Assembly (NCBI GenBank): GCA_964408855.1
Contig: CAYPBB010000004.1
Location: 51,764 to 115,763 of the forward strand
Direction: 5' to 3'
Source of the DNA: an uncultured Ectothiorhodospiraceae bacterium
GTDB taxonomy: Bacteria > Bacteroidota > Ignavibacteria > SZUA-365 > GCA-2699105
DNA length: 64,000 nucleotides
The stretch's first letter is position 1. Each line of letters opens with the position of its first letter. The notes beneath the pieces are model-generated. The model did no database searches. It was not told where the DNA came from and saw nothing but the letters and a program-made list of their open reading frames with translations. This document shows, piece by piece, positions 518 through 63,106 of the stretch. Position numbers and translations under genes: made by a program.

Positions 518-571
518 TCTGATTTTGTGAATGAATAATTATTGTATGATAGCTTCCGATACGGAGGATTG

Positions 572-2152: not shown

Positions 2153-2193
2153 CGACGTGCGCATCTATCACAATGATTGAGAACTCCTGAACT

Positions 2194-24041: not shown

Positions 24042-24065
24042 GCCGGTTTCACTCGTGAATTGTAT

Positions 24066-24093
24066 GGGCGCAGCATGCTGCGCCCTTTTTTAT
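24066..24093 (+). terminator. rho-independent terminator of rpsA
   Basis: Hairpin GGGCGCAGCA/TGCTGCGCCC followed by TTTTTTATT. Confidence 0.65.
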
Positions 24094-24099
24094 TGTGGG

Positions 24100-24540: not shown

Positions 24541-24890
24541 GGGACACTGGGGCAATGTGCACAGTGCTTGTCTTGTATAGCCCTAAACGATGTTTAGCGG
24601 GTGTCATTTGTTAGGCAGAGTTGCATTTAGTAGAAAAAGTTACGAGATTGAGTGTGGTGTACAAATATTCTTGGCAACGGATATATTGTGGGTGCGTGGC
24701 ATAACTGTTCTCATTAATTTCGAATAGCCAAACCATAGACGATGCCAGCCAAGCAATTGTTTGAGTTAACTTAGCGGACTAAGATAATGAAATCTATTTT
24801 TGTTTATCATAGCCATTGAATAATTGAAAAATGATTTGAGTCGAAGCAAGGTGGTTGAGTAAAAGTTGGAATAGTAATGGAGGCATAAGT

Positions 24891-28846: not shown

Positions 28847-29692
28847 ATGTTATTTCGTTTTCTTCTGTTTCTCGGGGTGATTGTCTTGTTCAACGCCCCT
28901 ACATCCTTTGGTCAGATTCTCTATACCGATATCGTGCCCGATACGGTACTCTGTACGCCGCCGGGACCGGGCGGTCACACCAATTATTATATCGATATGA
29001 ACCATGACGGTATTTTCGATTTTCAGATGACCCATTTTTACGCCAAGGTTGACTGGGTATCGGCGGAAGCGTACAGTTATAGCGACGGTATTCACGCAAA
29101 TTACCCGTGTAAAATTCTGACCAATGTATACAACCACGGGATGGCTTTCAGCGTCGGCGACACAATCGGTCCGAATACGCAGGGCACGTGGTATAACGGT
29201 CTGGAGTTCGGCGGAATGACATCGGTGTATCTCAGCAATTATAATGAAACGTATTACCCCTGGCACGATGCCGCGGATAAATACCTTGCGGTGACGATGG
29301 AGGATGCGCAGCACACCTATTATGGATGGGTCTGCATGGACGTGGGACCAAACTCGGCATGGCTGAAAGTGAAGGCGTTTGCGATGAATTTCGCGCCGGA
29401 TTCATATATCACAGCCGGGCAATGGACGACGACGGGTATCGACATGGCCGCCGCTGTTGCCGGGAGTATCTCGGTATATCAGGCTCCGGGTTTTATCATG
29501 GTCAGAATGGATGATACGCCTGGCCAGGAACAAACAATTGCCGTTTATTCTGTTCTGGGAGAGCGCGTTGCATCGGTAACGCAGACAGGCGCGGTGACTG
29601 CTATCCCATCGCGCGGCCTGCCGAAAGGCATGTATCTGGTGACTGCAACCACGGGCGAAACAATACGTTACGGGAAGGTGTTATTACGGTAA
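28847..29692 (+). CDS. hypothetical secreted protein with T9SS C-terminal sorting domain
   Basis: Signal peptide MLFRFLLFLGVIVLFNAPTSFGQ. C-terminal IAVYSVLGERV...GMYLVTATTGETIRYGKVLLR fits the T9SS CTD pattern. RBS GGAGG. Confidence 0.6.
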   Translation: MLFRFLLFLGVIVLFNAPTSFGQILYTDIVPDTVLCTPPGPGGHTNYYIDMNHDGIFDFQMTHFYAKVDWVSAEAYSYSDGIHANYPCKILTNVYNHGMAFSVGDTIGPNTQGTWYNGLEFGGMTSVYLSNYNETYYPWHDAADKYLAVTMEDAQHTYYGWVCMDVGPNSAWLKVKAFAMNFAPDSYITAGQWTTTGIDMAAAVAGSISVYQAPGFIMVRMDDTPGQEQTIAVYSVLGERVASVTQTGAVTAIPSRGLPKGMYLVTATTGETIRYGKVLLR

Positions 29693-46695: not shown

Positions 46696-46725
46696 AATAA
46701 AAATGGGCGCCCCGGAGGACGCCCA
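46696..46725 (-). terminator. rho-independent terminator of the T9SS nonaheme cytochrome gene
   Basis: Hairpin TGGGCGCCC-cgga-GGACGCCCA with an adjacent A-run on plus (U-run on the minus transcript), immediately downstream of the minus-strand stop at 46753. Confidence 0.5.
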
Positions 46726-46752
46726 CATATTGGATCGACGATGAGATGACGA

Positions 46753-48774
46753 TTACTTCGTCAGCACCATCTTCTTGGTCGCGCGGTAGTTGCCTGCTTC
46801 GATGCGGTAGAAGTACACGCCCGAAGGTGCAACATGCGTATCAGTGTTGGTGGTTCCGTTCCAGGCGACGCGGTATGTGCCGGCCTGGTAGAATCCGTCG
46901 ACAAGAACGTTCACGCGTTTACCGTTTGCGTCGTACACGGCGAGCTTCACGTTCGCTCCTTTCGGGACGGAGAACATGATTTCGGTGCTCGGGTTGAACG
47001 GATTCGGGAAGTTCTGTGCGAGGTTGTAGTTGTTCGGAACCGCGCCGCCGACAGGTTCAACGTTCACTTTCTTCATCTCGTCGATGGAGGCCTTCAATAA
47101 TGCTTCCGCATATTTGAAGTTGTGGACGCCGAAGCTGTTGTCGTTGTTCACAAAGTAGTAATTCCAATGAACGTCGATTTCAAGCTGCGTCTTCAGCGCA
47201 GTATCGGACGGGAATCGCGGTCTGCCGTCCGGACGGAGCTTCAGATAGCCCTTCAACTCGTCGAGAAGCGCCTTGATTTCGGTCTGCGTTTCTTCCATTT
47301 CCGTCAGCGTGACGCCGCTCGTGTGGCAGGTCTTGCAACCGGTGTTGTTCAGGACATCGTCGGTAGCATCGTTCGGAGTGTCGTTGTCATAGAGAACACG
47401 GAAGGTGTGACCGCCGAGTTTATTGTTATACTGCGCATCCTCTGGTTCCGCCATGTGGCATTCGGCGCATGCGTCGGCAATGTTGGTGTGAACCGAATTC
47501 GGGTAGCTGTAACCCGGGAATTCGCGACCGCCTTCGCCCTTCAGCATCGGTCCCTGGTGCGAAGCGTGGAGACCGCTCTGACCGGAAGGACGGATACTGT
47601 GGCAATCGGCGCACAACTGGTTTTTGGCTTTCCGCAACTGCGACGGATTTGCGTTGCTGTGCGGATCGTGGCAGGTGACGCAACCGACGTAGGCGGGATC
47701 CTTGTACGGCGCATTCGAGAAGGAAGTTTCCGGCGGATTGGCGCTCTTGACGAACACATCGAGATAGCCTGCGGATGTATGGCAGCGGGCGCAATCGCTG
47801 TTCACGTTGGTCTTGCTGCCGCGGTTCATGTATTCCGGAAGCTCTGGACCTTCATCCATCGAGTGGCTGTGCGCGGAGTTCTCGTATTCCAGAAGCGTAC
47901 GGTGGTAGGGCGGCGCATCGTGGCACTGCTTGCACGTCTCGCTCGATGCGGAAGAATAAATCTTGTTGTCGCCGGTCGGGCCGCCGTGGGCGCTGCCGGG
48001 GCCATGACACGATTCGCATTGAATGCCTGCGCGGTGCGCGAGCATAGGCGCGACGAGCTTTAACGAATCCCAGTTGCCGGCTTTCAATTCGGTTGGGAAC
48101 GTCCAACTGCTCGATTTTGCTAGATGAAGGAATCCATCGCCTTCCGCAGCCGGATTCGTGGAACCAGTGGTGTGGCAACCGAGGCAGTTTGAATTGAAAT
48201 GCCCGCCGACTTCATCAAGCCGGCGTTCCAATGCCGTTGCGTGCGCCGTCTGGTTCCATGTAGTTGCTACGGCGCTGTGGCACATAGCGCACTGCGGATA
48301 CGTCGCCGCGCCGCCGAGCATGGTGCCGACGCCGACATACTTGGCGACGTTGATCGCAAGCGTGTCCGTTCCGCCGTTCCCTTTGTTGTCCGTAGCGGTA
48401 AGCTGGATTTTATACGTTCCTTCCATGTCTGGAATGAAGAACGCGCGTTGCTGATCGATCATCGTGAACGCCGCGGTCGATCCTGCAGGCGCAGAGATGA
48501 ATGTGAATGTCGATGATGCCCAGGCTGTTGCGTCGCCGTTTGTAGCGTCGCGGGAGAATTTCCCGAAGACGCCCAAATAGACTTTTCCGCCTTTGGCGCA
48601 ATTCGGTAGACCGCTGAACGGCACATCGTACGCATCCGCAGGATCCGCAGCGACGAGGTTCGGCGATACGCCAAACGTACGGGCTTTCACAACAGCCGGG
48701 GTTAGCTGAGCATGGAGCGGCAGTGCGAAGCTCACCAGCACGGCTGCTACCAGAAATAGATGCAATGCCCTCAT
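46753..48774 (-). CDS. extracellular nonaheme c-type cytochrome with T9SS C-terminal sorting domain
   Basis: Signal peptide MRALHLFLVAAVLVSFALPLHAQ. Nine CxxCH motifs (CAMCH, CLGCH, CESCH, CKQCH, CARCH, CVTCH, CADCH, CAECH, CKTCH). C-terminal roughly 90 aa fits the T9SS CTD pattern (NFPNPFNPSTEI...VYDANGKRV...SGVYFYRIEAGNYRATKKMVLTK). Confidence 0.75.
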   Translation of the reverse strand: MRALHLFLVAAVLVSFALPLHAQLTPAVVKARTFGVSPNLVAADPADAYDVPFSGLPNCAKGGKVYLGVFGKFSRDATNGDATAWASSTFTFISAPAGSTAAFTMIDQQRAFFIPDMEGTYKIQLTATDNKGNGGTDTLAINVAKYVGVGTMLGGAATYPQCAMCHSAVATTWNQTAHATALERRLDEVGGHFNSNCLGCHTTGSTNPAAEGDGFLHLAKSSSWTFPTELKAGNWDSLKLVAPMLAHRAGIQCESCHGPGSAHGGPTGDNKIYSSASSETCKQCHDAPPYHRTLLEYENSAHSHSMDEGPELPEYMNRGSKTNVNSDCARCHTSAGYLDVFVKSANPPETSFSNAPYKDPAYVGCVTCHDPHSNANPSQLRKAKNQLCADCHSIRPSGQSGLHASHQGPMLKGEGGREFPGYSYPNSVHTNIADACAECHMAEPEDAQYNNKLGGHTFRVLYDNDTPNDATDDVLNNTGCKTCHTSGVTLTEMEETQTEIKALLDELKGYLKLRPDGRPRFPSDTALKTQLEIDVHWNYYFVNNDNSFGVHNFKYAEALLKASIDEMKKVNVEPVGGAVPNNYNLAQNFPNPFNPSTEIMFSVPKGANVKLAVYDANGKRVNVLVDGFYQAGTYRVAWNGTTNTDTHVAPSGVYFYRIEAGNYRATKKMVLTK

Positions 48775-49190
48775 TTAACCTCCGATACAATGATTTGATG
48801 GGACAAATAGAAGAACCTGTCTTCTTTTATTAAGACATGGATTTCCGAATGCAATAACGAACTGCAATACTGCAACTGCTAACTGCGCAATCCTAGAAAA
48901 ACGGCTGAAACTTTGCGTTGTGACAGTGAAATATACACAAGCCATTCTCCATTTTCCAGTAGAGCGCATCAAGAGCAATGAATAAATCATTGAACGGCAA
49001 GCCAACCCAAGCTTTTTTGTGGGAAAGAACAAGGATGAGGTGCTTGACATTTACAGTCGCTTTCGTCTTAGTGTGTAAATATTCTACATCAATATACGAA
49101 CAACGTCGTGTAACTGTCAATGAATTCTACACTTATTTCTGAAAAAAAGATGCTTTTGTATTCAGTCCGACGTGTCCCCTTTAAAACGGC

Positions 49191-49241: not shown

Positions 49242-50075
49242 TTACCAGTCGGTGCGTTCCAAACCGAAAACATTCAATTTGCCGTTCACGTGCAGGTTTT
49301 TATCGATGATATTATTGTTTGCGTCCACCGTTTGAGAATGGCAATTCGAGCATGTGGACGGGAAGCTTGCGTGCTGCTGTCCTTTTGGCTTCGGATCGCC
49401 GGTTGCCGGGTTGCCGTGGCACGACCCGCACTTCGCCTGATCGGTCCCTTTCCAGGAGACTGTTGCGTTATTTCCGCCTGTAAAGTTTCCGTGGCAGTAG
49501 GTATTTGCGCAGCCCGCACCGTCCTGTTGGAAGGAGGGAGTGCCGGAAGTACCAATCGTTACGGTGTTTGCCAGTGCGATGTTCAGCACGACTTCCGCTC
49601 CGTCCGGATTGCTGCCGCCGATGTGATTCGGATCGTCGAATCCGGTTATCGCCGGGTGGCAGTTCGTGCAGACCAAATTGAGAGAGGAACTGAGGCCCTG
49701 ATCGATATGCCTGCCGTGGGTTGCATACCAATATGGATAATTGGTCCCCCGGTCGCGTTCGCCGTGGCACGTATAACACGCTTCCGGTCCGCCGTCTTCC
49801 GCCCGGTGGCATCCCGATGTTGTACAGGAAACCTTTGCGATCCCTCCTGCATAGTCCTTTCCGTGACAGGTCGTGCAATTCTCCAGACTCCAGCCGTTCG
49901 ATCGGATCACCGTTCCGTGCCAATCGGGAGACGAGGGACTCGTCATACCCGGCGGATGGATGCCGTTCAGTGCCGGCGCAATCGGAAGATCTCCCTTATC
50001 CTTTAGCTCGCTTGAACAACCGGCAATCGCAAGCATTGCGAACGCCAGTCCTGCTAGTATTACTCGTGCGTTCAT
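49242..50075 (-). CDS. multiheme c-type cytochrome lipoprotein
   Basis: Lipoprotein signal (LAIAGCSSE). Five canonical CxxCH (CTTCH, CYTCH, CTNCH, CGSCH, CSNCH) plus two Cx4CH-like motifs (CTTSGCH, CANTYCH). 277 aa. Start overlaps the upstream gene by 4 nt. Confidence 0.7.
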   Translation of the reverse strand: MNARVILAGLAFAMLAIAGCSSELKDKGDLPIAPALNGIHPPGMTSPSSPDWHGTVIRSNGWSLENCTTCHGKDYAGGIAKVSCTTSGCHRAEDGGPEACYTCHGERDRGTNYPYWYATHGRHIDQGLSSSLNLVCTNCHPAITGFDDPNHIGGSNPDGAEVVLNIALANTVTIGTSGTPSFQQDGAGCANTYCHGNFTGGNNATVSWKGTDQAKCGSCHGNPATGDPKPKGQQHASFPSTCSNCHSQTVDANNNIIDKNLHVNGKLNVFGLERTDW

Positions 50076-51151
50076 TTGTTTTCACCTCCTGCCACTCCAG
50101 TCGAATGGCAAACCATACATACCGGATCGCCTCCGTCGACATTATGGCACGTAGCGCAGTGCTGGATATCCATCGATGCAAGGCGCGCATGACGGTTCAT
50201 CGCTTTGCCGCCCGTCGCCGAAGCAAATCCGGCAAGCTGGTGCGACTGCGGCACGATCCGTTCGCCGTTTGCGTCGTACCCGTTGGTGTGGCAATCGACG
50301 CAGAAGCTCTCCTGTTCGTGACACGTTGCGCAACGGCTCGATTGAATCCGCGCATCGAATCCGTGCGTGTATTTATACGTCAGACTATGCGCCTGTTGCG
50401 AGGTAAGCATGCCGCCGTCGTCCATTTTTTCGCCGCGAGGGTAGCTACCGATATAGAAATCTGTCTTCGTCGATGGAGCCGGCACATCATTCGTCGGTGT
50501 ATGGCATTCGGCGCAGAAGCTCTGCGAGTGGCAAACCGCGCAGTCGCGGCTGTCCTCGCCGGTGAGCGCCATCTTTCCATGGAACCTGGAGAAATCGGCC
50601 ATACGGTGATTTTTTGGAAGGAGGTTCGCAAGATTGGTATGGCACGCTTCGCATTGGTTGGTTGCCACGTTCTGCTGCATGGCGTCCGCCATCGAAACAA
50701 TCGGAGCAATTTTTTCGGCATTGTTGTGACACTCATAGCATCCGTCCATCGACGGTCCGGTAAAGCTGTCGCCGGTTTGGATATGGCAGCGGGCGCATTC
50801 AAGCTTCTGCGCGTCTGCATGGAATTTATGCGAGAAACGCAGTTCGTGAGGTCTCGGTGTACCTTTCACCTCGGCAAGATCGGTCGTTGCGTCCAATCCC
50901 CAATACTTGCGCACATCCGCTTCTTCATGGCAGCTCTGGCATGCGGAAGGGCCAGGAATGAGGTTGTCTTCCGCCGATTGGCTTTCGGCTGCCGCATGGC
51001 AGTCTGCGCAGGCGGCGAGTTCCTTGTGAATCTCATGCGAGAACATCACGCCGACCTTCGTCGCATCGGCGGCGGAAGGCGAGCTTGTCAGCGACACCAG
51101 TACTATCGCGGCTACAAGCAGTGAAGCGAAAATGGAATAGTAGTATTTCAT
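50072..51151 (-). CDS. periplasmic undecaheme c-type cytochrome
   Basis: Eleven CxxCH motifs. Signal peptide beginning MKYYYSIFASLLVAAIVLV; the ORF-track start 51196 is probably an over-extension. Confidence 0.75.
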   Translation of the reverse strand: MKYYYSIFASLLVAAIVLVSLTSSPSAADATKVGVMFSHEIHKELAACADCHAAAESQSAEDNLIPGPSACQSCHEEADVRKYWGLDATTDLAEVKGTPRPHELRFSHKFHADAQKLECARCHIQTGDSFTGPSMDGCYECHNNAEKIAPIVSMADAMQQNVATNQCEACHTNLANLLPKNHRMADFSRFHGKMALTGEDSRDCAVCHSQSFCAECHTPTNDVPAPSTKTDFYIGSYPRGEKMDDGGMLTSQQAHSLTYKYTHGFDARIQSSRCATCHEQESFCVDCHTNGYDANGERIVPQSHQLAGFASATGGKAMNRHARLASMDIQHCATCHNVDGGDPVCMVCHSTGVAGGENK

Positions 51152-52479
51152 TGCGCTTCCTCCTTGGTCGACCATCCGAGAGGATCGTTGAACCAATAGT
51201 TGATCCTGAGCAAGCCGCGCGTATCCGATTTATAAATGCGGTTGCTCATGTATTGCCCCTGCAGATCGATGGAGACGATTGGGATGGGGCGGTAGGTAAG
51301 ACCGGCAATGCCTGCCCACGCCGACGTTTTTTCGAGCTTATCGGATAGGGCGTAGTTGCTGTACACGACGCCTGCATGCGGCGTGAGTTTGTTTTCAAGA
51401 AACGGATACCGGAATTCGAAATTCAGTCCGTCGAGATCTCCATCCCAGCTCATGTCCTTTGTGTACATGATGGCGGCGTATTTATGCGATGCGCCGACGG
51501 AGAACCGGTACGCCGTCGATTCAAGACCGTCGATTTCCGGATAATCGTCGCCGGCGTTGTAGATGACCGCCGAAAAACGTCCCATCAACGTGATGCGTGG
51601 ATGAATCTTGTAGTCGATGCCGAGCACCGCCTCCTGATTCGCGCTCATCTCGAGGATGGAGAAATACGAATTCCAGGCGATAGTGGGCGCACGATGGGCG
51701 AGATTCAGAGATAGCCCCAGGTTGTCCAACGCCTGGTATGTCGCCGCAACTTCGGCGCGGGAGGCCTGCTCGAAATTGAAATCGTAATCGAATCTTACGT
51801 ACAGCCAGACGTTGTCGACAAGATAGCTGACGTTCAGACTGCCGTACTGGTTGGCGCGCGAACCGTAATCGATGGTTGTGGTCACCGCCTGACCGAGCGG
51901 ATCGAGCCGCAGGGCTTCGAACGGTGTCGATTCGCGGTGCCGGTTCATGTAACTCAATCCGAGCTTCATATTCTCGACGAGGTACAACGATACCTGCGCG
52001 CCGATCTGCCAGTTGTCTTCGAGATTGTTGAAGAAATCGGTTCTCTGCGATGGGGGAGTCAACCCGCCGCCGTAGCCCATGATTTCAACGCGGTTCGATG
52101 GACGTACGCGGATAGATGCGCCGTCTACGGTCCCGTAATTGACACCGGCATACACCGCCTGCCTTCCGAGACGGAGGTCGATCATATCTGCGACGTTCTT
52201 CACATTGATGTATGCGTTGAACAACCGCAATCTTGGATCGTGATCCATCTCGGTATCGAAATCGGTCGATGCCTGCATGTAGGTGTGGAACGAAATGTCT
52301 GCCGTTCCAAAGTTGAGTTGAATGTTCTCGTATGCTCTCAGGTGCGTTGTCGACGAGTCGGTTGAAAACGAGCGTTCCCAGCCATAGACGGTCGTCACCA
52401 GCCTGCCGTTCAGGACCTGCGCCGTCGAGACGCCTGAAAGCACGACGAGAAACAGAACAACAGTACAAACCTTTTGCAT
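51148..52479 (-). CDS. putative outer-membrane beta-barrel (porin-like) protein of a porin-cytochrome conduit
   Basis: Signal peptide MQKVCTVVLFLVVLSGVSTAQ. 443 aa, rich in Tyr/Gly/Asn with alternating hydrophobic beta-strand pattern. Flanked on both sides by multiheme cytochrome genes. Confidence 0.5.
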   Translation of the reverse strand: MQKVCTVVLFLVVLSGVSTAQVLNGRLVTTVYGWERSFSTDSSTTHLRAYENIQLNFGTADISFHTYMQASTDFDTEMDHDPRLRLFNAYINVKNVADMIDLRLGRQAVYAGVNYGTVDGASIRVRPSNRVEIMGYGGGLTPPSQRTDFFNNLEDNWQIGAQVSLYLVENMKLGLSYMNRHRESTPFEALRLDPLGQAVTTTIDYGSRANQYGSLNVSYLVDNVWLYVRFDYDFNFEQASRAEVAATYQALDNLGLSLNLAHRAPTIAWNSYFSILEMSANQEAVLGIDYKIHPRITLMGRFSAVIYNAGDDYPEIDGLESTAYRFSVGASHKYAAIMYTKDMSWDGDLDGLNFEFRYPFLENKLTPHAGVVYSNYALSDKLEKTSAWAGIAGLTYRPIPIVSIDLQGQYMSNRIYKSDTRGLLRINYWFNDPLGWSTKEEAQ

Positions 52480-52544
52480 ATGTTCGTCCTTTAGTTCTGT
52501 TGACCAGAATGAGAGTTGTTAATTGCTTGAATTTGGATAACTGC

Positions 52545-52586
52545 GGGGTAAAAACAAAACAGGCGGACCCGCATGGGATCCGCCTG
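52545..52586 (-). terminator. putative terminator/attenuator downstream of tetraheme cytochrome gene
   Basis: Hairpin CAGGCGGA(CC)...(GGGA)TCCGCCTG with a U-run on the minus transcript (plus GGGGTAAAAACAAAAC). Confidence 0.4.
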
Positions 52587-52599
52587 CGGTCTAGATTGA

Positions 52600-53160
52600 C
52601 TATTTTGGCAAACCGTGCTCGATTTTCGCCCACATTTCCTTCATTTTGAAGGCTTTATATGTCGGGCTTTTTTCGTTGTGGCACTGCTTGCAATGCTTTT
52701 CGGCGCTGCCGTCGGCCACCTTGGGTAATTCCAGTCCGAGTTTCTTCGCTTCTTCAAGCTGTTCGGGTTTGTTGTGTTTCGTCTTGAACAGCGATGCAGC
52801 ACCGTGGCACGATTCGCAGCCGACGCCTTCGGCTTTGTCGAACTTCGCGTCGAACTTCGCAGCTTTTTCCATCATCCCGGTAACATGGCAACTGAGGCAT
52901 TCCGGCGTTTCGGCTGCCTTGGTTTTAAAGCCTTTGTCTGCCGCGATTTTGTCCGCAGCGGGTGTTTGAAGGGTTTTGAACGCACTGGCATGGGCGCTCG
53001 ACTCCCATTTGGCGTACACTTTACCGCCCTTGTCGGTGTTATGGCATCCTTTGCACGACTTGGCGCCGACGTATTGCGGCGAATCGGCTGGCGTGAGAGT
53101 GAATGCGCACAACGCCACAAAAACGATCGATCCGAGAATTGGCACGACGACTCGTTTCAT
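52600..53160 (-). CDS. periplasmic tetraheme c-type cytochrome
   Basis: Signal peptide. Four CxxCH (CKGCH, CLSCH, CESCH, CKQCH). 186 aa, Lys-rich. Confidence 0.8.
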   Translation of the reverse strand: MKRVVVPILGSIVFVALCAFTLTPADSPQYVGAKSCKGCHNTDKGGKVYAKWESSAHASAFKTLQTPAADKIAADKGFKTKAAETPECLSCHVTGMMEKAAKFDAKFDKAEGVGCESCHGAASLFKTKHNKPEQLEEAKKLGLELPKVADGSAEKHCKQCHNEKSPTYKAFKMKEMWAKIEHGLPK

Positions 53161-53267: not shown

Positions 53268-55538
53268 TTACGACTGAGGATGTTCCTTCGCGCCGTTCAC
53301 GCTTTCTTCGTCGTCGGTGATGATTGTCACATCACCGGCTTTCGCCTTCAGGCGCTCGAGTTCAAGTGGATGCTCTTCGAGCATTTCATGCTCGGTGAGG
53401 GTACCCTTGAACCAGGCGACATTCATCGGATATACGTCTGGGTTGAAGATGATAAAGTAAAAATGCCAGACGATGATAGCAAGCGTTGCGAGCCATGCTT
53501 CGTAAAAATGGATGATGGTCATGATATCGAGGAATTCCTTCGAGGTCATCGCTCCGAAAAACTCATGGAACCACAGCATCAGACCCGTCGCGCCCATCAC
53601 GATCGTGCCCCAGATCAACGCCCAGTATTCGGCTTTCTCCATATAACTGAATCTGTCGAACCTCGGCCGGTCGCCGGTTCTGCCGAGGTACCACTTGAAT
53701 GCCTGAAGCGCATCTTTCACATCTTTCCAGATAGGCAGCATATCCTTGATGAACTGTCTGCCGCGTTTGGTGGCGACCATGTACCAGATGTGATACAGCG
53801 ACGCAGCGAGCATGACGGCTCCGGCAATTCTGTGAAGAACGCCGCGCAGTTCAAACGCCGGTTCGCCGAGAATCTCGCGGATGTATACCACCCACCATGC
53901 ATTGGGGTAGGTCAATCCAAAGCCGGTGAATACGAGCAGAATGAAACTCAGTGCGAGCGTCGCGTGCTGGATTCGCTCGCTCAGCGTCATTCTCAGATAT
54001 AGATTGTGGGCAACCTCGTGCTGGTGACCTCTACGGCGGGCTTTCAGCTTTTCGAGCGCCTTCTTCCTGAAATCAAGCAGATTGTGGAAGAGCATCCCGC
54101 CGATTGTCAGTACGATGAGCAGGATGTAGATCGTCGTGATCGTGTATTGAATTCCGGATTCCTTCTCGGTGCGGACAACATGGATCGGACCTTTTGTAAA
54201 GCTCTCGGAGGCGTTCGGATGGCACTTCCCGCATGTTTGTTTCAAATTGGAGGGATGAATGCTCGACGTTGAATCGCTCGATGGTTTAATGCTATGCGCG
54301 CCGTGGCAGCTCGCGCAATTCGCTGCGACTTTCGATCCGCCCTGAACGGCGAGCCCGTGATAGCTGTCGAGATAGCTTTCTCCGGGATTCGCGACGATAC
54401 CGTATTTGTCTGCCATGCGCACCGAGTTGTGGCAGGGAAGACACACCTTCTCCGGAAGGTTGCGGCTGTTTACCGGCGATTGCTTTGAATCGACGGCAAG
54501 AATGCCGTGTTCTCCGTGGCAATCGGTACAAGATGGCGCATCGCGGACGCCGCGCGCAAGCGCCGAACCATGGATGCTCTCGTTGAATTCCGTTTTGATG
54601 GCATCGTGACATTTCCCGCATGTAGTCGGAATTTTCAGCTTGTTCACTTTCGAGTCCGCGACAGACCCGGGCGCTACTTCGTGCGCTCCGTGGCAATCGA
54701 TGCAGTTTGCAGCATCAGCATTACCGCGGTGCAGCGACATCCCGTGGATGCTATGCTCATACGCATCGATGAAACCGGCGCTTGTCGCCATGCGCGATTT
54801 CACATCGTCGTCGTTTTGATGGCATGAAAGGCAGAGTTTTTCCTGCGCAATCTTCAGGTCCAGCTTGCTCAGTCCGCTGCTGGGCGTGATCGATTTGGAG
54901 TGGCACGAAATACATGTCGGCGCGCCTTTGACATTGGCGGCGACTGCTTTCCCGTGCCACGATGCGTTGAATGTCGCGACCTCGGCGCTGTGGCATGTGC
55001 CGCACGACTTGTTCAGATTTGCGCTGGAAAATGGAGAAGCCGGGTTTTTCGGAGCGACGACATTATGTGTTCCGTGGCACTCCTTGCACGCCGATTGCAA
55101 ACGTCCGGCAGTCTTAGCGGCATTCAGCATTGAGGCGTGGAATTTGTGCGTCTGCAGCGCGTCTTTATGGCAGCTTGTACACTGCACCGGAGTGATTTTC
55201 TCTTTATGCGGCACATCGTCGGGATTGAATCCGACATGACAAGAGATACAACTCAGCTTGCTATGAGGAGAGGCTTTCAGAATCTTCGGATTGGTGTAGA
55301 GCGAAACCTCTCTCCCGTTTTTCTCCATCGTCAAATCTTTATCGTTATGGCAAGCCTGACAATCGGCGACCGATTGGGCGATACTTTGTCCGCTGAATAT
55401 CAGCAGTACCGCCGCAGACAGGAATGCCAGAAGCTGGGTCCTTTTCATCGAAGTATACCTGCTTTCGGAGCAAATCTGGCGTTTGTTAAATTCAACGTGC
55501 TTCCTTTCTGGTGTAGTATTCATGGGTTTGCGCGGCAT
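53268..55538 (-). CDS. CbcL-like fusion: periplasmic multiheme (13 CxxCH) c-type cytochrome domain plus C-terminal membrane di-heme cytochrome b (HydC/FdnI-type) domain
   Basis: Signal/anchor. Thirteen CxxCH motifs in the N-terminal roughly 430 aa. C-terminal roughly 300 aa carries 4-5 TM helices with conserved His (HNLLDF, HRIAGAV, HFYEAW, WHFYFI), as in Ni/Fe-hydrogenase / formate-dehydrogenase b-type cytochrome subunits. Confidence 0.7.
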   Translation of the reverse strand: MPRKPMNTTPERKHVEFNKRQICSESRYTSMKRTQLLAFLSAAVLLIFSGQSIAQSVADCQACHNDKDLTMEKNGREVSLYTNPKILKASPHSKLSCISCHVGFNPDDVPHKEKITPVQCTSCHKDALQTHKFHASMLNAAKTAGRLQSACKECHGTHNVVAPKNPASPFSSANLNKSCGTCHSAEVATFNASWHGKAVAANVKGAPTCISCHSKSITPSSGLSKLDLKIAQEKLCLSCHQNDDDVKSRMATSAGFIDAYEHSIHGMSLHRGNADAANCIDCHGAHEVAPGSVADSKVNKLKIPTTCGKCHDAIKTEFNESIHGSALARGVRDAPSCTDCHGEHGILAVDSKQSPVNSRNLPEKVCLPCHNSVRMADKYGIVANPGESYLDSYHGLAVQGGSKVAANCASCHGAHSIKPSSDSTSSIHPSNLKQTCGKCHPNASESFTKGPIHVVRTEKESGIQYTITTIYILLIVLTIGGMLFHNLLDFRKKALEKLKARRRGHQHEVAHNLYLRMTLSERIQHATLALSFILLVFTGFGLTYPNAWWVVYIREILGEPAFELRGVLHRIAGAVMLAASLYHIWYMVATKRGRQFIKDMLPIWKDVKDALQAFKWYLGRTGDRPRFDRFSYMEKAEYWALIWGTIVMGATGLMLWFHEFFGAMTSKEFLDIMTIIHFYEAWLATLAIIVWHFYFIIFNPDVYPMNVAWFKGTLTEHEMLEEHPLELERLKAKAGDVTIITDDEESVNGAKEHPQS

Positions 55539-55589: not shown

Positions 55590-57080
55590 TCAGTTCCCGA
55601 GATGGCAATCGGAACAATTCGCGGTTTTCCATGCATCGTCGATATCCGACGGATGGTTGAACTCCATTCCGTCGAGGCTGCTTACAGGACTTGTCGCCGG
55701 TCCCTGTCTAATTATTGCATGGCAGACCGAACAGTCGTTCGATATGACCTTGCCGTCTTCCGAAACGTGCTTGTTATCGTGGCAGCGGAAACAGCCGATA
55801 TTGTACATATGCCCGATGTTGTTTGGATAGGCTTTCCAATTGACCTTCATTTCGGCGAAGAAATTCCTCGAATAAATTCTCATTATCTCCGTGATCGCGC
55901 GCTCTACATCCTGGGAGCGGGTTTTCAGGATTTCCGGAGCGCGTTCGCGGTATTCGCCGCGGATGATGTCGGGAATCTCCAAACGAGCCTGTGTTGACGT
56001 CGCGAACTCGCGGGTCATTGCATACGAAGCGATGCCTCTGATACCCGGGAGCGTAGGATCGATCTTGCCGTTCGCCATAGCGTCGTTGATTGTCCGGAAC
56101 GGCGGATAGTAGATATGAGAAGGACGGTTATGGCAGTCGATGCAATCCATTTTGCGCTTCTCGTATTTCCCGATTTCCTTCCCGGAAATCTCATGGTCCT
56201 TCGAACGGAATATCCGTACTTCGCCTTTCAGGTTCTTGCTCATGACCCAGGGGATGACCTGGCGTTTATCGTCGGACGCGATATAGGTTATTTCCTGTTC
56301 GGTATTCATATGCCAATGGATGCCTTCCGTAGGACCCAATTCGCTCTGTCCGCCGCCGATTTTAAGATCCATTTCGATGATCCACGGCACGGTTCCTGTT
56401 GTATCGATCGGGAAGTACACCTTCTTCAATTTCTTTTCGGCGGTGAATTTGCTGGGCCAGTGGCATTCCTCGCACGTTTCGCGCGCCGGACGCAGGTTGT
56501 GGACGGGCGTTTCGATTGGCCGGTGATACTTATCGAAGATGACCGAGTACACCTGGTACATACCGCTGATCTTGGCTTTGACGAACCAATCAGCGCCGGT
56601 GCCGATATGGCACTCGGCGCAGGCGACGCGGGCATGCGGGGAATGCTGGTACGCAGTATACTCGGGGTTCATGACCTCATGGCATACTTCGCCGCAGAAC
56701 TCAACCGATTCGGAATAGGTGTAGGTCTGATACATACCTGCCGCGGAGATAACGATCAGGAACATCGTTCCCACAGTGAAGATCATCACCGCCATGCGAT
56801 GGCGGGGCAGATTCAGATCGAGGTGGATGTACCGGCGCGGTTCGCCGTGGCGTTTCCGCCGCCGGCGCCGTTCCCAAAGAATACCGATAGGGATGAGGAA
56901 GAGTCCGGCAAACATGATTCCCGGAAGAATCATATACGTGAAGATCCCGAGATAGGGCGAACTGGTAAAGCCAAGCACATCCATCATGAAGAACACGAAG
57001 ATGCTGCCCAGAGTCAGGAGGGTGATTCCTACTCCGGCAAGGCTAATCGGATTGTAGACGATATCCGGCAATCTTCTCAT
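55590..57080 (-). CDS. ImcH-like inner-membrane multiheme c-type cytochrome (NapC/NirT-like quinol dehydrogenase family)
   Basis: Two or three N-terminal TM helices. Six CxxCH (CAECH, CEECH, CIDCH, CFRCH, CSVCH, CSDCH) plus one Cx3CH (CGEVCH). 496 aa. Confidence 0.6.
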   Translation of the reverse strand: MRRLPDIVYNPISLAGVGITLLTLGSIFVFFMMDVLGFTSSPYLGIFTYMILPGIMFAGLFLIPIGILWERRRRRKRHGEPRRYIHLDLNLPRHRMAVMIFTVGTMFLIVISAAGMYQTYTYSESVEFCGEVCHEVMNPEYTAYQHSPHARVACAECHIGTGADWFVKAKISGMYQVYSVIFDKYHRPIETPVHNLRPARETCEECHWPSKFTAEKKLKKVYFPIDTTGTVPWIIEMDLKIGGGQSELGPTEGIHWHMNTEQEITYIASDDKRQVIPWVMSKNLKGEVRIFRSKDHEISGKEIGKYEKRKMDCIDCHNRPSHIYYPPFRTINDAMANGKIDPTLPGIRGIASYAMTREFATSTQARLEIPDIIRGEYRERAPEILKTRSQDVERAITEIMRIYSRNFFAEMKVNWKAYPNNIGHMYNIGCFRCHDNKHVSEDGKVISNDCSVCHAIIRQGPATSPVSSLDGMEFNHPSDIDDAWKTANCSDCHLGN

Positions 57081-57943: not shown

Positions 57944-59305
57944 TTAATCGGGGCGTTTAAGGCCGTATTTTTCGATTTTATTGTACAAGGTTACCCGGTC
58001 GATTCCGAGCCGGTCGGCGCTGCGGGTAATATTCCAATTCAGATCGTCGAGCGTTTTCATGATATGGAAGCGTTCCATGTCCGCAAGCGACTCGCTAGCG
58101 CTTTGGTTGCCTGCCGAGGAAAGCTGCATCGGAAGATGTTTCAACCGTATCGCTTCGTCGCCGCAAACGACCATGGCGCGTTCGATAGCGTTCTCCAACT
58201 CACGCACGTTGCCGGGCCATGGGTATCCAACCATCGACTCGATCGCTTCGGGAGTGATATTCCGGGACTGTTTATTCATTCTGGTTGCGTACTTTTTCAC
58301 GAAGTGCGCAGCGAGTATGGGAATGTCGCTCCTCCGGTCGCGCAGTGGGGGAACGTGAATCGCGAATACGTTAATTCTATAGTAGAGGTCTTCCCGAAAC
58401 GTACCTTCTTTCACCGCTTTTTCCAAGTCCATATTCGTCGCGCATACCAGTCTGAAGTCGACATGGATTTGTTTCTCGCCGCCGACTCGTTGAAACTGTT
58501 TGCTTTCCAGGACGCGCAGCAAATCGACTTGGGATTTCAGACTGAGCGTTCCGATTTCATCCAGAAACAGCGTTCCGCCGTTCGCCATCTCGAAGCTGCC
58601 TTTCCGGCGGTACTGCGCGCCGGTAAATGCGCCTTTCTCGTGACCAAACAGCTCGCTCTCGATAAGCGAATCAGCAAGGGCGCCGCAGTTCACCGGTATG
58701 ATCGGGAAATACTTCCGTTCGCTGTTCGAATGAATCGCTTTAGCGATCAGCTCTTTCCCGGTCCCGCTCTCGCCAAGAATCAGTACGGTAGAATCGGTGG
58801 GCGCAACCGTGCGTATCAACTCGAACACCGATTGCATTCCTGTGCTTTCGCCGATGAAATCCTCGACGTTGTGCAGCGTTTCAATCCGTTCCTTGAGCTG
58901 CACGTTTTCCTTTTTCAGCATCCGCTGATGCGCGGCGTTCCGAACCATCACCGTTAGCTCATCCGGATCCACCGGCTTCGTCACGTAATCGAAGGCGCCG
59001 GCTTTCAGCGCTCTGACAGCCGAATCCACCGCGGCGAATGCCGTGATGATGATGATGACAATCTCGCCGTCGAATTCCCTGATTCGGTCCTGCAGCGCAA
59101 GTCCGTCCATACCGGGCATCTTGATATCGAGAAGAATGATGTCGATCGTGGACTTCTGGATCAGATTCAGCGCGTCGGCGGCGTTTTCGGCAGTGCTGAC
59201 CTGATATCCTTCGTCGAGGAACCATTCGCAAAGCGACTCGCGAACGGATAGTTCGTCGTCGACGATAAGGATATGGATGGATGCGCGGTCGAGTGTTTGG
59301 TTCAT
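57944..59305 (-). CDS. sigma-54-dependent response regulator (NtrC/Fis family: REC + AAA+ sigma54-interaction + HTH)
   Basis: REC domain ([18 protein letters not shown]). Walker [15 protein letters not shown] sigma54-contact motif. C-terminal Fis-type HTH. Confidence 0.85.
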
Positions 59306-59359
59306 ATTCGTACAGTTAAGAATGAATGCCAGAGCGTGAATATCTGTATTCGGATCGCA

Positions 59360-61090
59360 TTACGATCCCTCCTGTGGACCGTCGGCTGGGAGGAGGACAC
59401 GGAATGCCGTTCCTTTCCCCAATTCGCTCATTACTTTAATATCGCCTTTGTGCCGCTTGACGATGCCGTAGACGATAGAGAGACCGAGACCTGTGCCGTG
59501 TCCGACTTCTTTTGTCGTTACGAAAGGTTCGAACAAACGCGGCAGGAGCGTTTCATCGATACCGCTGCCGTTGTCCTTGACGGTGATCTCGGCGATGGAA
59601 TGTTGGATCTCCGCGCTGATGCGGATCGTCCCTCCGTCCTGCATCGCCTCGATGCTGTTGACAACAAGCGCGATGATCATTTGCTGTATCTGATTGGCGT
59701 CGCAGACAATGGTTGTCTCCTCGCTTCTGAAATCCTGCACCAGCCGCACCATCTGCATATCGGCTTTGTGTTGAATCAGCCGCACACATTTATCGATCGT
59801 ATCCCTCAAATCGGTTTTTGTATACGAGGCCGAGTCGCTTCTGGCGAAGAACAGGAGGTTCTTCACGATATCGCCGCAGCGCTTCGCTTCGTCGGCAATG
59901 AGCGTGGAATCCTTCATGATTTTTTCGATCATTTCGGGCGTAAGTTCCATTCGGGACATTCTGCTCCTGATCAGCCGCGCATACGTAAGTATACCCGAGA
60001 GGGGATTGTTCAACTCGTGCGCGATCATCGAACTCAACTGCCCGAGCGACGCCATTTTTTCGATATGGACGACCTGCGCCTGCACCTCCTGAAGTTCGCG
60101 CGTTTTTTCTTCCACTTTCTGTTCGAGCGTGTTGGACCATTCGACAAGCTCTGCCTTTGCCGCCTTGATATCCGACGCCATTTCGTTGAACGAACGGTTT
60201 AGCATCCCAAGCTCGTTCTTTGTATCGACCGCGAGCTTGTAATCGAGGTTGCCTGCGGAGATAGCCTTTGTTCCATCGATCAGTTTCTGAACGGGGCGGT
60301 GGACGAATGAAACAATGAAGAATCCTGCGACACTGCCGACCGCGAGAAGCGAAATGAGCGCGCTTATTATGAGCATGTTGCGGCTCTTGTCGGTGTATTC
60401 GTCGACCATTTCCATGGAAAGCTGCACATCGAGAACGCCGAGGATCGTTTGGTCGGGGGTATGAACATGACAGCTTTGGTAGCACTCGCGTTCGTTCTGA
60501 ATCGGATTGATCAGTCCGAGCACCCGGTGTCCCGAAGCGGCCTCGTATACGCGCAAATACTGATCGGTCTTGGTTTTATTAAATCCGTCGCCCGAGCCGT
60601 GGCACATGGTGCAGGCGTCGGCGTCGACATCGACCACGCGACCGATTTCCGTGCTATCGGAGCTATACCGGATTACTCCGGCTTTGTCGTACACCCGGAT
60701 GCGTTCGGTACCCTTGGTCTTTCCCAGATCCATGATAGTGAATGCAATGGATTCGATGTCGTTGTGCTGCATGCCATAGCGCAACGACCGCTTGGTCATT
60801 TCCGAAGTGCGCTCGGCGCAACCTTCAACGGCCTTCGAAAAGTACCGCATTTCGGAGGTAACATTATAATAGGTAGTAATGGACAGTACCAGTACCAGAG
60901 CCAGTACAAGGAGGATGATTATTTTGAAACTCAGCGACTGATACAGTTTCATCGTTCCGTCCATAATAAAGGACATTCCCGTCTGTAAAGTAGTAAAGAA
61001 AAGCGCCTTTTTCAAGGCGCTGTAAAAAAAATCAACAACATTATTGCATGCCGTAATAAATACGCTGAAAATCCCTATGTTTTTCGCCAC
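59360..61090 (-). CDS. sensor histidine kinase with periplasmic domain carrying c-type heme-binding motifs
   Basis: TM, roughly 170 aa periplasmic segment, second TM, HAMP-like linker, coiled coil, HisKA (H-box IAHELNNPL), HATPase (G-boxes). The periplasmic segment contains CTMCH (CxxCH) and CYQSCH (Cx3CH). True start may be an internal Met near 60952. 16-nt overlap with the upstream gene. Confidence 0.8.
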   Translation of the reverse strand: MAKNIGIFSVFITACNNVVDFFYSALKKALFFTTLQTGMSFIMDGTMKLYQSLSFKIIILLVLALVLVLSITTYYNVTSEMRYFSKAVEGCAERTSEMTKRSLRYGMQHNDIESIAFTIMDLGKTKGTERIRVYDKAGVIRYSSDSTEIGRVVDVDADACTMCHGSGDGFNKTKTDQYLRVYEAASGHRVLGLINPIQNERECYQSCHVHTPDQTILGVLDVQLSMEMVDEYTDKSRNMLIISALISLLAVGSVAGFFIVSFVHRPVQKLIDGTKAISAGNLDYKLAVDTKNELGMLNRSFNEMASDIKAAKAELVEWSNTLEQKVEEKTRELQEVQAQVVHIEKMASLGQLSSMIAHELNNPLSGILTYARLIRSRMSRMELTPEMIEKIMKDSTLIADEAKRCGDIVKNLLFFARSDSASYTKTDLRDTIDKCVRLIQHKADMQMVRLVQDFRSEETTIVCDANQIQQMIIALVVNSIEAMQDGGTIRISAEIQHSIAEITVKDNGSGIDETLLPRLFEPFVTTKEVGHGTGLGLSIVYGIVKRHKGDIKVMSELGKGTAFRVLLPADGPQEGS

Positions 61091-61866: not shown

Positions 61867-61911
61867 TGTGTCCTCCCAGTAGTAGGTACTGGAATTATTG
61901 AGTTACGCATG

Positions 61912-63096: not shown

Positions 63097-63106
63097 GGCA
63101 TCCTCC

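What the first reader, a model, noticed from the sequence alone, without database searches (positions are those of the whole stretch)
46753..48774. Multiheme cytochrome that is a type IX secretion system cargo
The nonaheme protein ends in a clear T9SS C-terminal sorting domain (NFPNPFNPSTEI ... VYDANGKRV ... SGVYFYRIEAGNYRATKKMVLTK). This implies export across the outer membrane and covalent attachment to the cell surface by the Por machinery. A heme-loaded protein moving through T9SS would be an unusual way to display an electron-transfer protein, and mechanistically interesting since hemes are attached in the periplasm before T9SS transit. Two other T9SS cargos occur in the window (17685-20303, 28847-29692), so the organism clearly uses T9SS.
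Basis: partly seen in the sequence, partly recalled or inferred. Interest (0 to 1): 0.7.

Follow-up and report, generated by a model that had tools for sequence, protein, structure and literature searches.

The report
Surface nonaheme cytochrome with T9SS tail
An uncultured Ignavibacteria/Bacteroidota-type bacterium encodes a nine-heme cytochrome related to the iron-reducing surface cytochromes of Gram-positive bacteria. [quoted passage not shown]

Summary

The gene is probably its own transcription unit. It lies directly downstream of a complete electron conduit: two quinol-dehydrogenase-like cytochromes, a tetraheme, a 24-strand outer-membrane barrel, an 11-heme periplasmic cytochrome and a lipoprotein cytochrome. 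The same pairing recurs in two other genomes, but six other homologue loci lack it.

The window also holds a PorD-like T9SS component and two further CTD proteins. Core T9SS genes could not be checked.

Ten full-text literature searches found no paper linking T9SS to multiheme cytochromes. Verdict: real, a new variant of known kinds. Export and function are inferred, not shown.

The parts
46753..48774 (-). Gene for the 673-aa nonaheme cytochrome (stop codon included)
   Evidence: ORF list. Nine CxxCH motifs. Pfam and NCBIfam cytochrome and CTD hits. AlphaFold model with pLDDT 88.3.
48709..48774 (-). Sec signal peptide, residues 1-22 (MRALHLFLVAAVLVSFALPLHA|Q), with Gln at +1
   Evidence: Read from the sequence. 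Helix 2-17 in the model. Gln at +1 fits the Bacteroidetes Q-rule (PMC5837995). The cleavage site is inferred.
48346..48693 (-). N-terminal PKD/Ig-like β-sandwich, residues 28-143
   Evidence: Strands 28-143 at high pLDDT. Weak K319L-like PKD Pfam hit, E 0.0065. PKD domains of ColG/ColH and KIAA0319L among the fold matches.
47020..48327 (-). Nonaheme domain, residues 150-585, including a C-terminal three-helix bundle (residues 490-569, i.e. 47068-47307)
46756..47010 (-). Type-A T9SS C-terminal sorting domain, residues 589-673
49091..49120 (-). σ70-like promoter candidate (TTGACA-18-TATATT) in the 468-bp gap upstream of the gene
   Evidence: Consensus scan, 11 of 12 positions. This is a consensus match only. 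A hairpin plus T-run follows the upstream gene.
46703..46726 (-). Intrinsic-terminator-like hairpin 27 nt after the stop codon
   Evidence: 10-bp stem with 7 G-C pairs, followed by TTTTATT.
49242..50075 (-). 277-aa lipoprotein-type multiheme cytochrome (5 CxxCH + 2 CxxxxCH; lipobox LAIAG|C); candidate outward-facing subunit of the conduit
   Evidence: Motif counts. TIGR01904 47.9 bits. N-terminus. 35% identical homologue in the L094 module.
50072..51151 (-). 359-aa periplasmic 11-heme cytochrome with a signal peptide; its start overlaps the barrel gene's stop by 4 nt
   Evidence: 11 CxxCH. Cytochrome c7/c3 Pfam hits. Gene call of 359 aa in the identical contigs.
51148..52479 (-). 443-aa outer-membrane β-barrel (about 24 strands); candidate porin of a porin-cytochrome complex
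   Evidence: No Pfam or NCBIfam hit. AlphaFold pLDDT 85.1 with 24 strands plus a signal-peptide helix. Foldseek matches are outer-membrane barrels, the best being the 24-strand ushers FimD/PapC at E 5.5e-12. The family is confined to Ignavibacteria/Bacteroidota MAGs.
52600..53160 (-). 186-aa tetraheme cytochrome c554-like protein (periplasmic carrier candidate)
   Evidence: PF13435 62.2 bits. Four CxxCH. It is the conserved first gene of the four-gene module in L087, L089 and L090.
53268..55538 (-). 756-aa fusion of a 13-heme c domain and a cytochrome b561/HydC-type membrane domain (CbcL-like quinol oxidase candidate)
   Evidence: PF14522, PF14537 and PF01292 Ni_hydr_CYTB at 68.3 bits. 13 CxxCH. 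The likeness to CbcL rests on my knowledge of Geobacter CbcL.
55590..57080 (-). 496-aa membrane-anchored NapC/NirT-type hexaheme (second quinol dehydrogenase candidate)
   Evidence: PF03264 38.9 bits. Six CxxCH. Hydrophobic N-terminus.
57944..61090 (-). σ54-dependent response regulator (57944-59305) and HAMP histidine kinase (59360-61090) upstream of the cytochrome cluster
   Evidence: Pfam hits. A similar HK + σ54 RR pair lies next to the T9SS cytochrome in L094 and L001. No σ54 promoter signal above chance.
7085..8005 (-). PorD-like (DUF4835) protein, the only T9SS machinery candidate in the window
   Evidence: NF052317 T9SS_PorD at E 6.7e-47, 159.9 bits, just below the equivalog cut-off of 170. 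PF16119 162.8 bits. PorD is a PorW-binding T9SS component (PMC8754138).
17685..20303 (-). Second T9SS type-A CTD protein (heparinase II/III-like, 872 aa)
   Evidence: TIGR04183 35.9 bits and PF18962 35.3 bits.
28847..29692 (+). Third T9SS CTD protein (281 aa, otherwise unannotated)
   Evidence: TIGR04183 30.1 bits, above the cut-off of 23. PF18962 21.8 bits, below the cut-off of 27.

Best explanation
[quoted passage not shown] There it serves as an extracellular electron-transfer protein, most likely a terminal reductase for insoluble or extracellular acceptors.

Proposed path:
1. The Sec system exports the precursor and signal peptidase I cuts after Ala22, leaving Gln at +1.
2. The nine hemes are attached and the protein folds in the periplasm.
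3. The folded C-terminal β-sandwich is recognised by the T9SS translocon and the about 67-kDa holoprotein crosses the outer membrane.
4. The CTD is removed. The cytochrome is then either tethered to the surface or released.
5. Electrons arrive from the quinone pool through the neighbouring CbcL-like and NapC/NirT-like inner-membrane cytochromes, the periplasmic tetraheme, and the barrel + 11-heme + lipoprotein-cytochrome conduit.

Shown here: the domain architecture, its conservation, family assignment of each domain, and the neighbouring conduit genes. Inferred: heme loading, T9SS transit, CTD cleavage, anchoring, electron flow and its direction.
For: - CTD profiles pass their curated cut-offs at the extreme C-terminus.
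- 119 of the 120 best homologues keep the CTD at the C-terminus, and 94 of them have nine CxxCH. CTD residues are invariant across 37 homologues.
- The heme domain is closest to OcwA and the Carboxydothermus S-layer undecaheme by sequence and by fold. Both are cell-surface cytochromes of iron reducers (PMC6703420; PMC7829351).
- Among 150 cluster representatives of the heme core, the C-terminus varies by lineage: T9SS CTD in 65-66, an LPXTG sortase signal in one, other tails, or none. This is what a surface-protein family would show.
- An adjacent same-strand cluster encodes a complete conduit.
- The same pairing of T9SS cytochrome and porin module recurs in L087 (58% identity) and, in a different gene order, in L094 (39% identity).
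- The window holds a PorD-like gene and two more CTD proteins.
- T9SS is reported as probably present in Ignavibacteriota (PMC11285876).
Against: - No core T9SS gene (porK/L/M/N, sov/sprA, porU, porV) is in the window, and the rest of the genome could not be read.
- The CTD also passes the FlgD_ig Pfam cut-off (32.1 bits, cut-off 27). As a single sequence it hits only FlgD in the PDB, at E about 0.03.
- T9SS secretion has never been demonstrated in this lineage.
- Six of nine homologue loci examined have no porin-cytochrome module within 10 kb. The module also occurs without the T9SS cytochrome. The gene looks monocistronic. Functional coupling therefore rests on partial synteny.
Confidence: 0.6

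Rival explanations
1. The protein is T9SS-exported but works as an enzyme rather than a wire. It would be an extracellular NrfA-superfamily reductase or detoxifier, for example for nitrite, hydroxylamine or sulfur compounds, acting at an open-coordination heme.
For: - OcwA has two hemes with open distal sites and reduces nitrite and hydroxylamine (PMC6703420).
- Some relatives carry PF02335, and one is named nitrite reductase by NCBI.
Against: - There is no CxxCK or other catalytic-heme motif.
- Nine non-motif His are invariant or nearly so, enough for bis-His ligation of all nine hemes.
- OcwA's nitrite turnover is very slow, kcat 1 per min.
- The neighbours are a porin-cytochrome conduit, not nrfH-type partners.
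Confidence: 0.15
2. The C-terminal β-sandwich is not a secretion signal. It would be a FlgD-type Ig-like domain, and the cytochrome would stay in the periplasm as an electron carrier or store.
For: - PF13860 FlgD_ig passes its cut-off.
- No core T9SS gene was seen.
Against: - TIGR04183 and PF18962 also pass, at lower E-values.
- The domain is always at the extreme C-terminus and ends in the Lys-containing motif typical of CTDs (PMC11285876).
- Named homologues are almost all from FCB-group phyla.
- The same organism has two classical CTD proteins and a PorD-like gene.
- The heme core's nearest characterised relatives are surface proteins.
Confidence: 0.1
3. The system runs inward. The surface cytochrome would take electrons from Fe(II), reduced humics, a cathode or a partner cell and feed them through the conduit to the quinone pool or to periplasmic reductases.
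For: Porin-cytochrome conduits are used in both directions in nature (Mto/PioAB versus Mtr; established knowledge). Nothing in the sequence fixes the direction. Ignavibacteria PCC clusters have been classed as 'mto-like' when no extracellular cytochrome gene was nearby (PMC6137239).
Against: - The characterised relatives OcwA and OmhA are reductases of iron reducers.
- Cultured Ignavibacteria (Melioribacter) reduce Fe(III) (PMC3534657).
- CbcL-like and NapC/NirT-like quinol dehydrogenases are the usual entry points of outward electron transfer (my knowledge of Geobacter and Shewanella).
Confidence: 0.1

Closest known systems
OcwA of Thermincola potens (PDB 6I5B) and the S-layer undecaheme of Carboxydothermus ferrireducens (PDB 6QVM; I take it to be OmhA, which the paper read describes but does not link to that entry)
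   Same: - OcwA also has nine hemes and a globular heme domain followed by a three-helix bundle. The CHM motif at heme 8 is shared.
- Both are cell-surface cytochromes of iron-reducing bacteria.
   Different: - Those proteins belong to monoderm bacteria and reach the surface without crossing an outer membrane.
- They have no T9SS CTD and no N-terminal PKD-like domain.
- The axial ligation of the hemes here is unknown.
[quoted passage not shown]
   Same: - Sec signal peptide plus a C-terminal domain of about 80 residues that passes TIGR04183 and PF18962.
- A conserved Lys near the C-terminus.
   Different: - Among the T9SS papers listed or read here, cargos are proteases, adhesins, glycoside hydrolases and nucleases, and none is a c-type cytochrome. 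No paper in the searched library holds both T9SS and multiheme.
- The CTD is of the 'NPFNPST' FlgD-Ig-like subtype, common in non-Bacteroidia FCB phyla. That subtype has not been tested experimentally.
MtrC/OmcA of Shewanella (exported by the type II secretion system) and OmcB/OmcC of Geobacter porin-cytochrome complexes
   Same: - The proposed role is the same: a multiheme cytochrome on the outer face of a Gram-negative cell, fed by a porin-cytochrome conduit.
- A Pfam MtrC/MtrF domain II/IV hit passes its cut-off over residues 252-395.
- The neighbouring barrel + periplasmic multiheme + lipoprotein multiheme has the Geobacter Pcc layout, already reported for Ignavibacteria (PMC7399161; PMC6137239).
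   Different: - The export signal is a T9SS CTD, not a lipoprotein/T2SS route (the T2SS route in Shewanella is my knowledge).

Membership tests
T9SS type-A CTD cargo (TIGR04183 / PF18962) | [quoted passage not shown] | tested here: met
   Hydrophobic N-terminus MRALHLFLVAAVLVSFALPLHA|Q. Helix 2-17 in the model. No dedicated signal-peptide predictor was available.
T9SS type-A CTD cargo (TIGR04183 / PF18962) | CTD profile match above the curated cut-off, located at the extreme C-terminus | tested here: met
   TIGR04183 39.0 bits (cut-off 23) and PF18962 32.9 bits (cut-off 27), residues 589-670 of 673. Conserved in 119 of 120 homologues.
T9SS type-A CTD cargo (TIGR04183 / PF18962) | Compact Ig-like β-sandwich fold like the solved CTDs, with a conserved Lys in the last strand | tested here: met
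   [not shown]
T9SS type-A CTD cargo (TIGR04183 / PF18962) | The host encodes the core machinery (PorK/L/M/N = GldK/L/M/N, Sov/SprA, PorU, PorV) | not testable with these tools
   Only 64 kb is visible. It holds a PorD-like gene (159.9 bits, cut-off 170) and two other CTD proteins. The 140-kb NCBI contig indicated could not be retrieved.
T9SS type-A CTD cargo (TIGR04183 / PF18962) | T9SS-dependent secretion and CTD removal shown experimentally | not testable with these tools
   Needs fractionation, proteomics or genetics.
OcwA/OmhA-type surface multiheme cytochromes (NrfA superfamily) | Heme-domain fold and heme-motif order shared with OcwA | tested here: met
   [not shown]
OcwA/OmhA-type surface multiheme cytochromes (NrfA superfamily) | C-terminal three-helix bundle after the globular heme domain | tested here: met
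   Helices 490-508, 530-543 and 550-569. This feature is described for OcwA in PMC6703420.
OcwA/OmhA-type surface multiheme cytochromes (NrfA superfamily) | Mixed heme ligation (two open-site hemes, one His/Met heme) and reductase activity toward Fe(III), electrodes or flavins | not testable with these tools
   M441 after heme-8 CxxCH is invariant and nine extra His are conserved.
MtrC/OmcA/UndA outer-membrane decaheme family | Ten or eleven hemes in a staggered cross, flanked by two β-barrel domains | tested here: not met
   [not shown]
Porin-cytochrome (Pcc-type) conduit (neighbouring genes 49242-53160) | Contiguous genes for a large outer-membrane β-barrel, a periplasmic multiheme cytochrome and an outer lipoprotein multiheme cytochrome | tested here: met
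   24-strand barrel model and outer-membrane barrel fold matches. An 11-heme protein with a signal peptide and a 5+2-heme protein with a lipobox. The module is conserved in L087, L089, L090 and L094.
Porin-cytochrome (Pcc-type) conduit (neighbouring genes 49242-53160) | Sequence homology of the barrel to Geobacter OmbB/OmbC or Shewanella MtrB | not tested
   No reference sequences were available. No Pfam or NCBIfam model matched. MtrB was not among the 50 best Foldseek matches.

The most novel reading that the evidence does not exclude
T9SS is the general route by which FCB-group bacteria (Ignavibacteria, Bacteroidota, Calditrichota, Latescibacterota, KSB1 and others) put folded, covalently heme-loaded cytochromes on or beyond their surface. 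The PorU-processed, possibly LPS-tethered, nonaheme would be the missing extracellular end of their porin-cytochrome conduits. This would be a third, mechanistically distinct way, besides T2SS/lipoprotein export and Gram-positive wall anchoring, to wire a cell to minerals. It would also show that the T9SS translocon passes a roughly 67-kDa holo-cytochrome.
Probability: 0.45. Interest if true: 0.75.

Novelty: new variant of a known kind. Interest (0 to 1): 0.6.

Why it matters
Extracellular electron transfer is understood mechanistically almost only in Shewanella and Geobacter, and more recently in a few Gram-positive bacteria. Ignavibacteria and relatives are repeatedly enriched on anodes and in iron-reducing settings, and are known to carry porin-cytochrome clusters (PMC7399161, PMC6137239, PMC11495043). 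How their outermost cytochromes reach the surface has not been addressed.

A conserved OcwA-type cytochrome with a T9SS tag gives a concrete, testable answer. It could explain 'incomplete' conduits that lack a nearby extracellular cytochrome gene. It would also let genome surveys predict surface cytochromes in FCB phyla from the CTD.

For the T9SS field, it would add a cofactor-loaded redox protein to a cargo list made up of hydrolases and adhesins. It would also provide a coloured, heme-stainable reporter for transport of folded cargo.

The same heme core carries different lineage-specific anchors (T9SS CTD, LPXTG, other tails). This is a clear example of modular evolution of surface redox proteins.

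Tried and rejected
- The genome-contig scan with the family alignment was swamped by the CTD peptide pattern. It returned mostly unrelated CTD proteins and no close full-length homologue, so it gave neither the source genome nor systematic synteny.
- The metagenome-contig scan with the heme domain found one irrelevant locus.
- The source contig in NCBI (140,382 bp) could not be retrieved. Look-ups returned only Logan contigs of at most 11.6 kb. The test for core T9SS genes therefore failed for lack of data, not because of a negative result.
- A σ54 promoter search was at chance level: 24 matches against 25.8 expected.
- Rfam on the gene and its flanks gave only a sub-threshold hit on the upstream hairpin.
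- MtrC-family membership was considered because of the PF22113 hit, and rejected on heme number and fold.
- The 81-bit partial hit to NF041198, 'UshA-like (seleno)protein' (cut-off 275), was followed to a 2026 selenoenzyme paper. That paper turned out to be unrelated. The hit is treated as a shared heme-binding segment.
- I looked for a decayed second paralogue downstream, since L087 has two tandem copies. None was found.
A family-specific CTD HMM and regular expressions were used instead, so 65-66 of 150 is a lower bound.
Heme ligation and molecular dimensions could not be derived.
Full report
**Observation**

A GGAGG ribosome-binding site precedes the ATG. The protein has nine canonical CxxCH motifs, at residues 162, 197, 253, 281, 328, 365, 388, 436 and 480, and no variant motifs. 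It starts with a typical Sec signal peptide, MRALHLFLVAAVLVSFALPLHA|Q.

Residues 589-670 match TIGR04183 at 39.0 bits (cut-off 23, E 5.7e-10) and PF18962 at 32.9 bits (cut-off 27). They also match the CTD portions of the PorU and T9SS-dependent peptidase models.

- 17685-20303 is a heparinase II/III-like protein that passes both models.
- 28847-29692 passes TIGR04183 but not the Pfam cut-off.

**Anatomy**

An AlphaFold2 model built on 37 homologues is confident, with mean pLDDT 88.3 and pTM 0.76. It shows four parts:
- a signal helix;
- an N-terminal β-sandwich (residues 28-143);
- a largely helical and loop-rich heme domain (about 150-570) ending in three long helices (490-508, 530-543, 550-569);
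- a C-terminal β-sandwich (597-671).

In the 37-sequence alignment, eight of the nine CxxCH motifs are invariant and the second (C197/C200/H201) is at least 90% conserved. Eight further histidines (H178, H263, H302, H372, H403, H429, H456, H551) and M441 are invariant, and H291 is at least 90% conserved. The CTD residues P590, N591, P592, F593, G618, G632, G652 and Y654 are invariant, and K668 is at least 90% conserved.

**What the domains are**

**Conservation and spread**

A search of 5.8 billion proteins gave 342 homologues. Those that carry names come from Ignavibacteriae, Bacteroidota, Latescibacteria, Calditrichaeota and KSB1 MAGs, with a few probably mis-binned MAGs. NCBI already labels several of them 'T9SS type A sorting domain-containing protein'.

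With an HMM of the family's own tail, 119 of the 120 best hits carry the tail at the extreme C-terminus. Of the 120, 94 have nine CxxCH and 24 have eight.

A filter-free search with the heme domain alone against 1.84 billion cluster representatives found 128 clusters at E ≤ 1e-30 and 950 at E ≤ 1e-10. The best 150 representatives end in different ways:
- 65-66 end in this CTD;
- 36 stop right after the helix bundle, as OcwA does;
- 12 end in a '…FYRV..P' domain;
- 5 end in a '…LRGP…' tail;
- one ends in LPKTG followed by a membrane span and RRRAH, a sortase signal;
- 30 have other or truncated ends.

A heme core that picks up the surface-sorting device of whichever lineage it lives in is what one expects of a cell-surface protein family. 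It argues that the CTD here does the same job.

**Context**

Upstream on the same strand lies a coherent electron-transfer cluster:

| Coordinates | Product |
|---|---|
| 55590-57080 | Membrane-anchored NapC/NirT-type hexaheme |
| 53268-55538 | 13-heme cytochrome fused to a cytochrome b561 membrane domain (CbcL-like by my knowledge) |
| 52600-53160 | c554-like tetraheme |
| 51148-52479 | 443-aa protein with no family hit |
| 50072-51151 | 11-heme periplasmic cytochrome; its start overlaps the previous stop by 4 nt |
| 49242-50075 | 277-aa cytochrome with a lipobox, five CxxCH and two CxxxxCH motifs |

The 443-aa protein models as a signal peptide plus 24 β-strands (pLDDT 85.1). It matches outer-membrane barrels, best the 24-strand ushers (E 5.5e-12). 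Its homologues are hypothetical proteins of Ignavibacteria/Bacteroidota MAGs. This is the Geobacter-type porin-cytochrome layout already reported for Ignavibacteria (PMC7399161; PMC6137239). Further upstream are a histidine kinase, a σ54 response regulator and a 4Fe-4S/NrfD pair.

Between the conduit and the T9SS cytochrome lies a 468-bp gap. It contains a hairpin plus T-run after the upstream gene and a σ70-like promoter match at 11 of 12 positions. A strong terminator-like hairpin follows the cytochrome gene. The gene is therefore probably its own transcription unit.

**Synteny elsewhere**

I examined nine homologue loci; three of them were identical copies of the window.
- L087 (58% identity) has the same conduit, the same gap and the same downstream msrA/YCII genes, but carries two tandem T9SS cytochromes.
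- L094 carries a 920-aa subfamily member at 39% identity. It lies about 3 kb upstream of a homologous barrel (33% identity, E 2e-78) and a homologous lipoprotein cytochrome (35%). CcmF/D/E, an HK-σ54 pair and another CTD protein are nearby.
- L001, L003, L088, L092, L093 and L095 have no conduit within 10 kb.
- Conversely, the four-gene module occurs right after the nuo operon, without the T9SS cytochrome, in L089 and L090.

The association is recurrent and arose in two different arrangements, but it is not obligatory. Coupling is plausible and unproven.

**Is there a T9SS?**

The window holds one machinery candidate at 7085-8005. It matches the PorD equivalog model at E 6.7e-47 (159.9 bits, cut-off 170) and DUF4835 at 162.8 bits. 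PorD binds PorW and is needed for efficient secretion in P. gingivalis (PMC8754138).

Eight predicted signal-peptidase-I substrates in the window have Gln at +1. This is the Bacteroidetes 'Q-rule', which is also strong in Ignavibacterium album (PMC5837995). Reviews list Ignavibacteriota among phyla that probably have a T9SS (PMC11285876).

The core genes could not be checked. The source contig exists in NCBI at 140,382 bp but was not retrievable.

**Mechanism proposed**

The steps are:
1. Sec export and signal-peptide cleavage.
2. Periplasmic heme attachment and folding.
3. Recognition of the folded CTD by the translocon and passage of the holoprotein.
4. CTD removal, then anchoring or release.
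5. Electron flow from quinol through the CbcL-like and NapC-like cytochromes, the tetraheme and the barrel-embedded 11-heme plus lipoprotein cytochrome, to the nonaheme and on to an external acceptor.

The CTD must be a folded domain for secretion (PMC11285876). That the T9SS handles folded cargo through a very wide SprA/Sov barrel is my knowledge of the SprA structural work and was not checked here. Whether the protein is tethered, as in P. gingivalis, or released, as T9SS effectors in general can be (abstracts of PMC5562754 and PMC10202324), cannot be told from the sequence.

Steps 1-5 are inferences. What is shown is architecture, homology, conservation and gene neighbourhood.

**Rivals**

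- It could be an exported enzyme rather than a wire. OcwA has open hemes and weak nitrite and hydroxylamine activity.
- The tail could be a FlgD-type Ig domain in a periplasmic protein.
- The conduit could run inward.

Each is less well supported, for the reasons given in the rival entries.

**Comparison and novelty**

Each ingredient is known: OcwA-type surface cytochromes, type-A CTD cargos, and Ignavibacteria porin-cytochrome clusters. The combination is not described in the literature I could search. No paper in 7.7 million PMC articles and 0.34 million bioRxiv preprints contains both T9SS (or 'type IX secretion') and multiheme (or 'multi-heme'). The few papers with T9SS and 'c-type cytochrome' are unrelated by title and abstract.

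The Melioribacter genome paper mentions the Por tail only for carbohydrate-active enzymes. The Melioribacter respiration paper does not mention secretion at all. A survey of secreted proteomes notes extracellular multiheme cytochromes in Bacteroidota without naming a route. Subscription-only literature was not searchable.

I rate this a new variant of known kinds. It is of moderate to high interest, and limited by the absence of any experimental or whole-genome support for export.

Noticed in passing
Proteins P0241-P0383; no window coordinates: The OcwA-type heme core is combined with different C-terminal ends in different lineages. Of 150 cluster representatives, 65-66 have the T9SS CTD and 36 have no extra tail. 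A conserved '…FYRV..P' domain ends 12, a '…DYPD..LRGP…' tail ends 5, and one (P0349) has an LPKTG sortase signal. The FYRV-type domain was not identified.
   Followed up: partly
L093:6610-9594 (minus strand), next to the nonaheme homologue P0012: A 994-aa protein combines an EB_dh (PF09459) domain with a Por_Secre_tail. That EB_dh is a heme-binding domain is my recollection and was not checked. It would be another candidate redox-type T9SS cargo, sitting beside a T9SS cytochrome.
   Followed up: no
L089:9314-13204 and L090:8993-13424: The four-gene module (c554-like tetraheme, ~430-aa barrel, ~360-aa multiheme, ~280-300-aa multiheme) follows the NADH dehydrogenase (nuo) operon directly in two Bacteroidota-type genomes. 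In the window, nuoL/M/N-like genes lie 46 kb away, at 80-3693.
   Followed up: partly
L087:10001-14677 and L088:10001-14466: Two relatives carry tandem duplicates of the T9SS nonaheme cytochrome (673+696 aa and 669+692 aa). The window has a single copy and no remnant of a second one.
   Followed up: yes
window 45354-46379 (+): Three overlapping ORFs in three different frames (179, 204 and 128 aa) sit between the cytochrome gene and msrA. They have no Pfam hit and no similarity to any fetched locus other than the identical contigs. This may be a frameshifted or decayed gene.
   Followed up: partly
window 61075-63862 (-) and L096:272-946: An unusual module lies upstream of the kinase/σ54 regulator pair: GCV_H-like protein, 4Fe-4S dicluster protein, NrfD-type membrane protein, then a second GCV_H-like protein. 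No catalytic subunit is in view.
   Followed up: no
window, N-termini of the genes at 46753, 51148, 17685, 28847, 7085, 10138, 11887 and 35654: Eight predicted signal-peptidase-I substrates have Gln immediately after the likely cleavage site (the Bacteroidetes 'Q-rule'). This supports an Ignavibacteria/Bacteroidota origin for the window.
   Followed up: partly
window 47916-48306 (-), residues 157-287 of the cytochrome: There is a partial 81-bit match to the C-terminal 100 positions of NCBIfam NF041198, 'UshA-like (seleno)protein' (cut-off 275). It is sub-threshold and unexplained, and is probably a shared heme-binding segment.
   Followed up: partly
window 57379-57933 (-): A Peptidase_M54 (archaemetzincin-type) gene sits between the σ54 regulator and the NapC/NirT-type cytochrome, inside the cytochrome cluster.
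   Followed up: no
window 24001-26000: GC content drops to 0.44, against about 0.52-0.55 elsewhere, around a 647-aa ORF (24855-26798) with no family hit. This may be foreign DNA.
   Followed up: no
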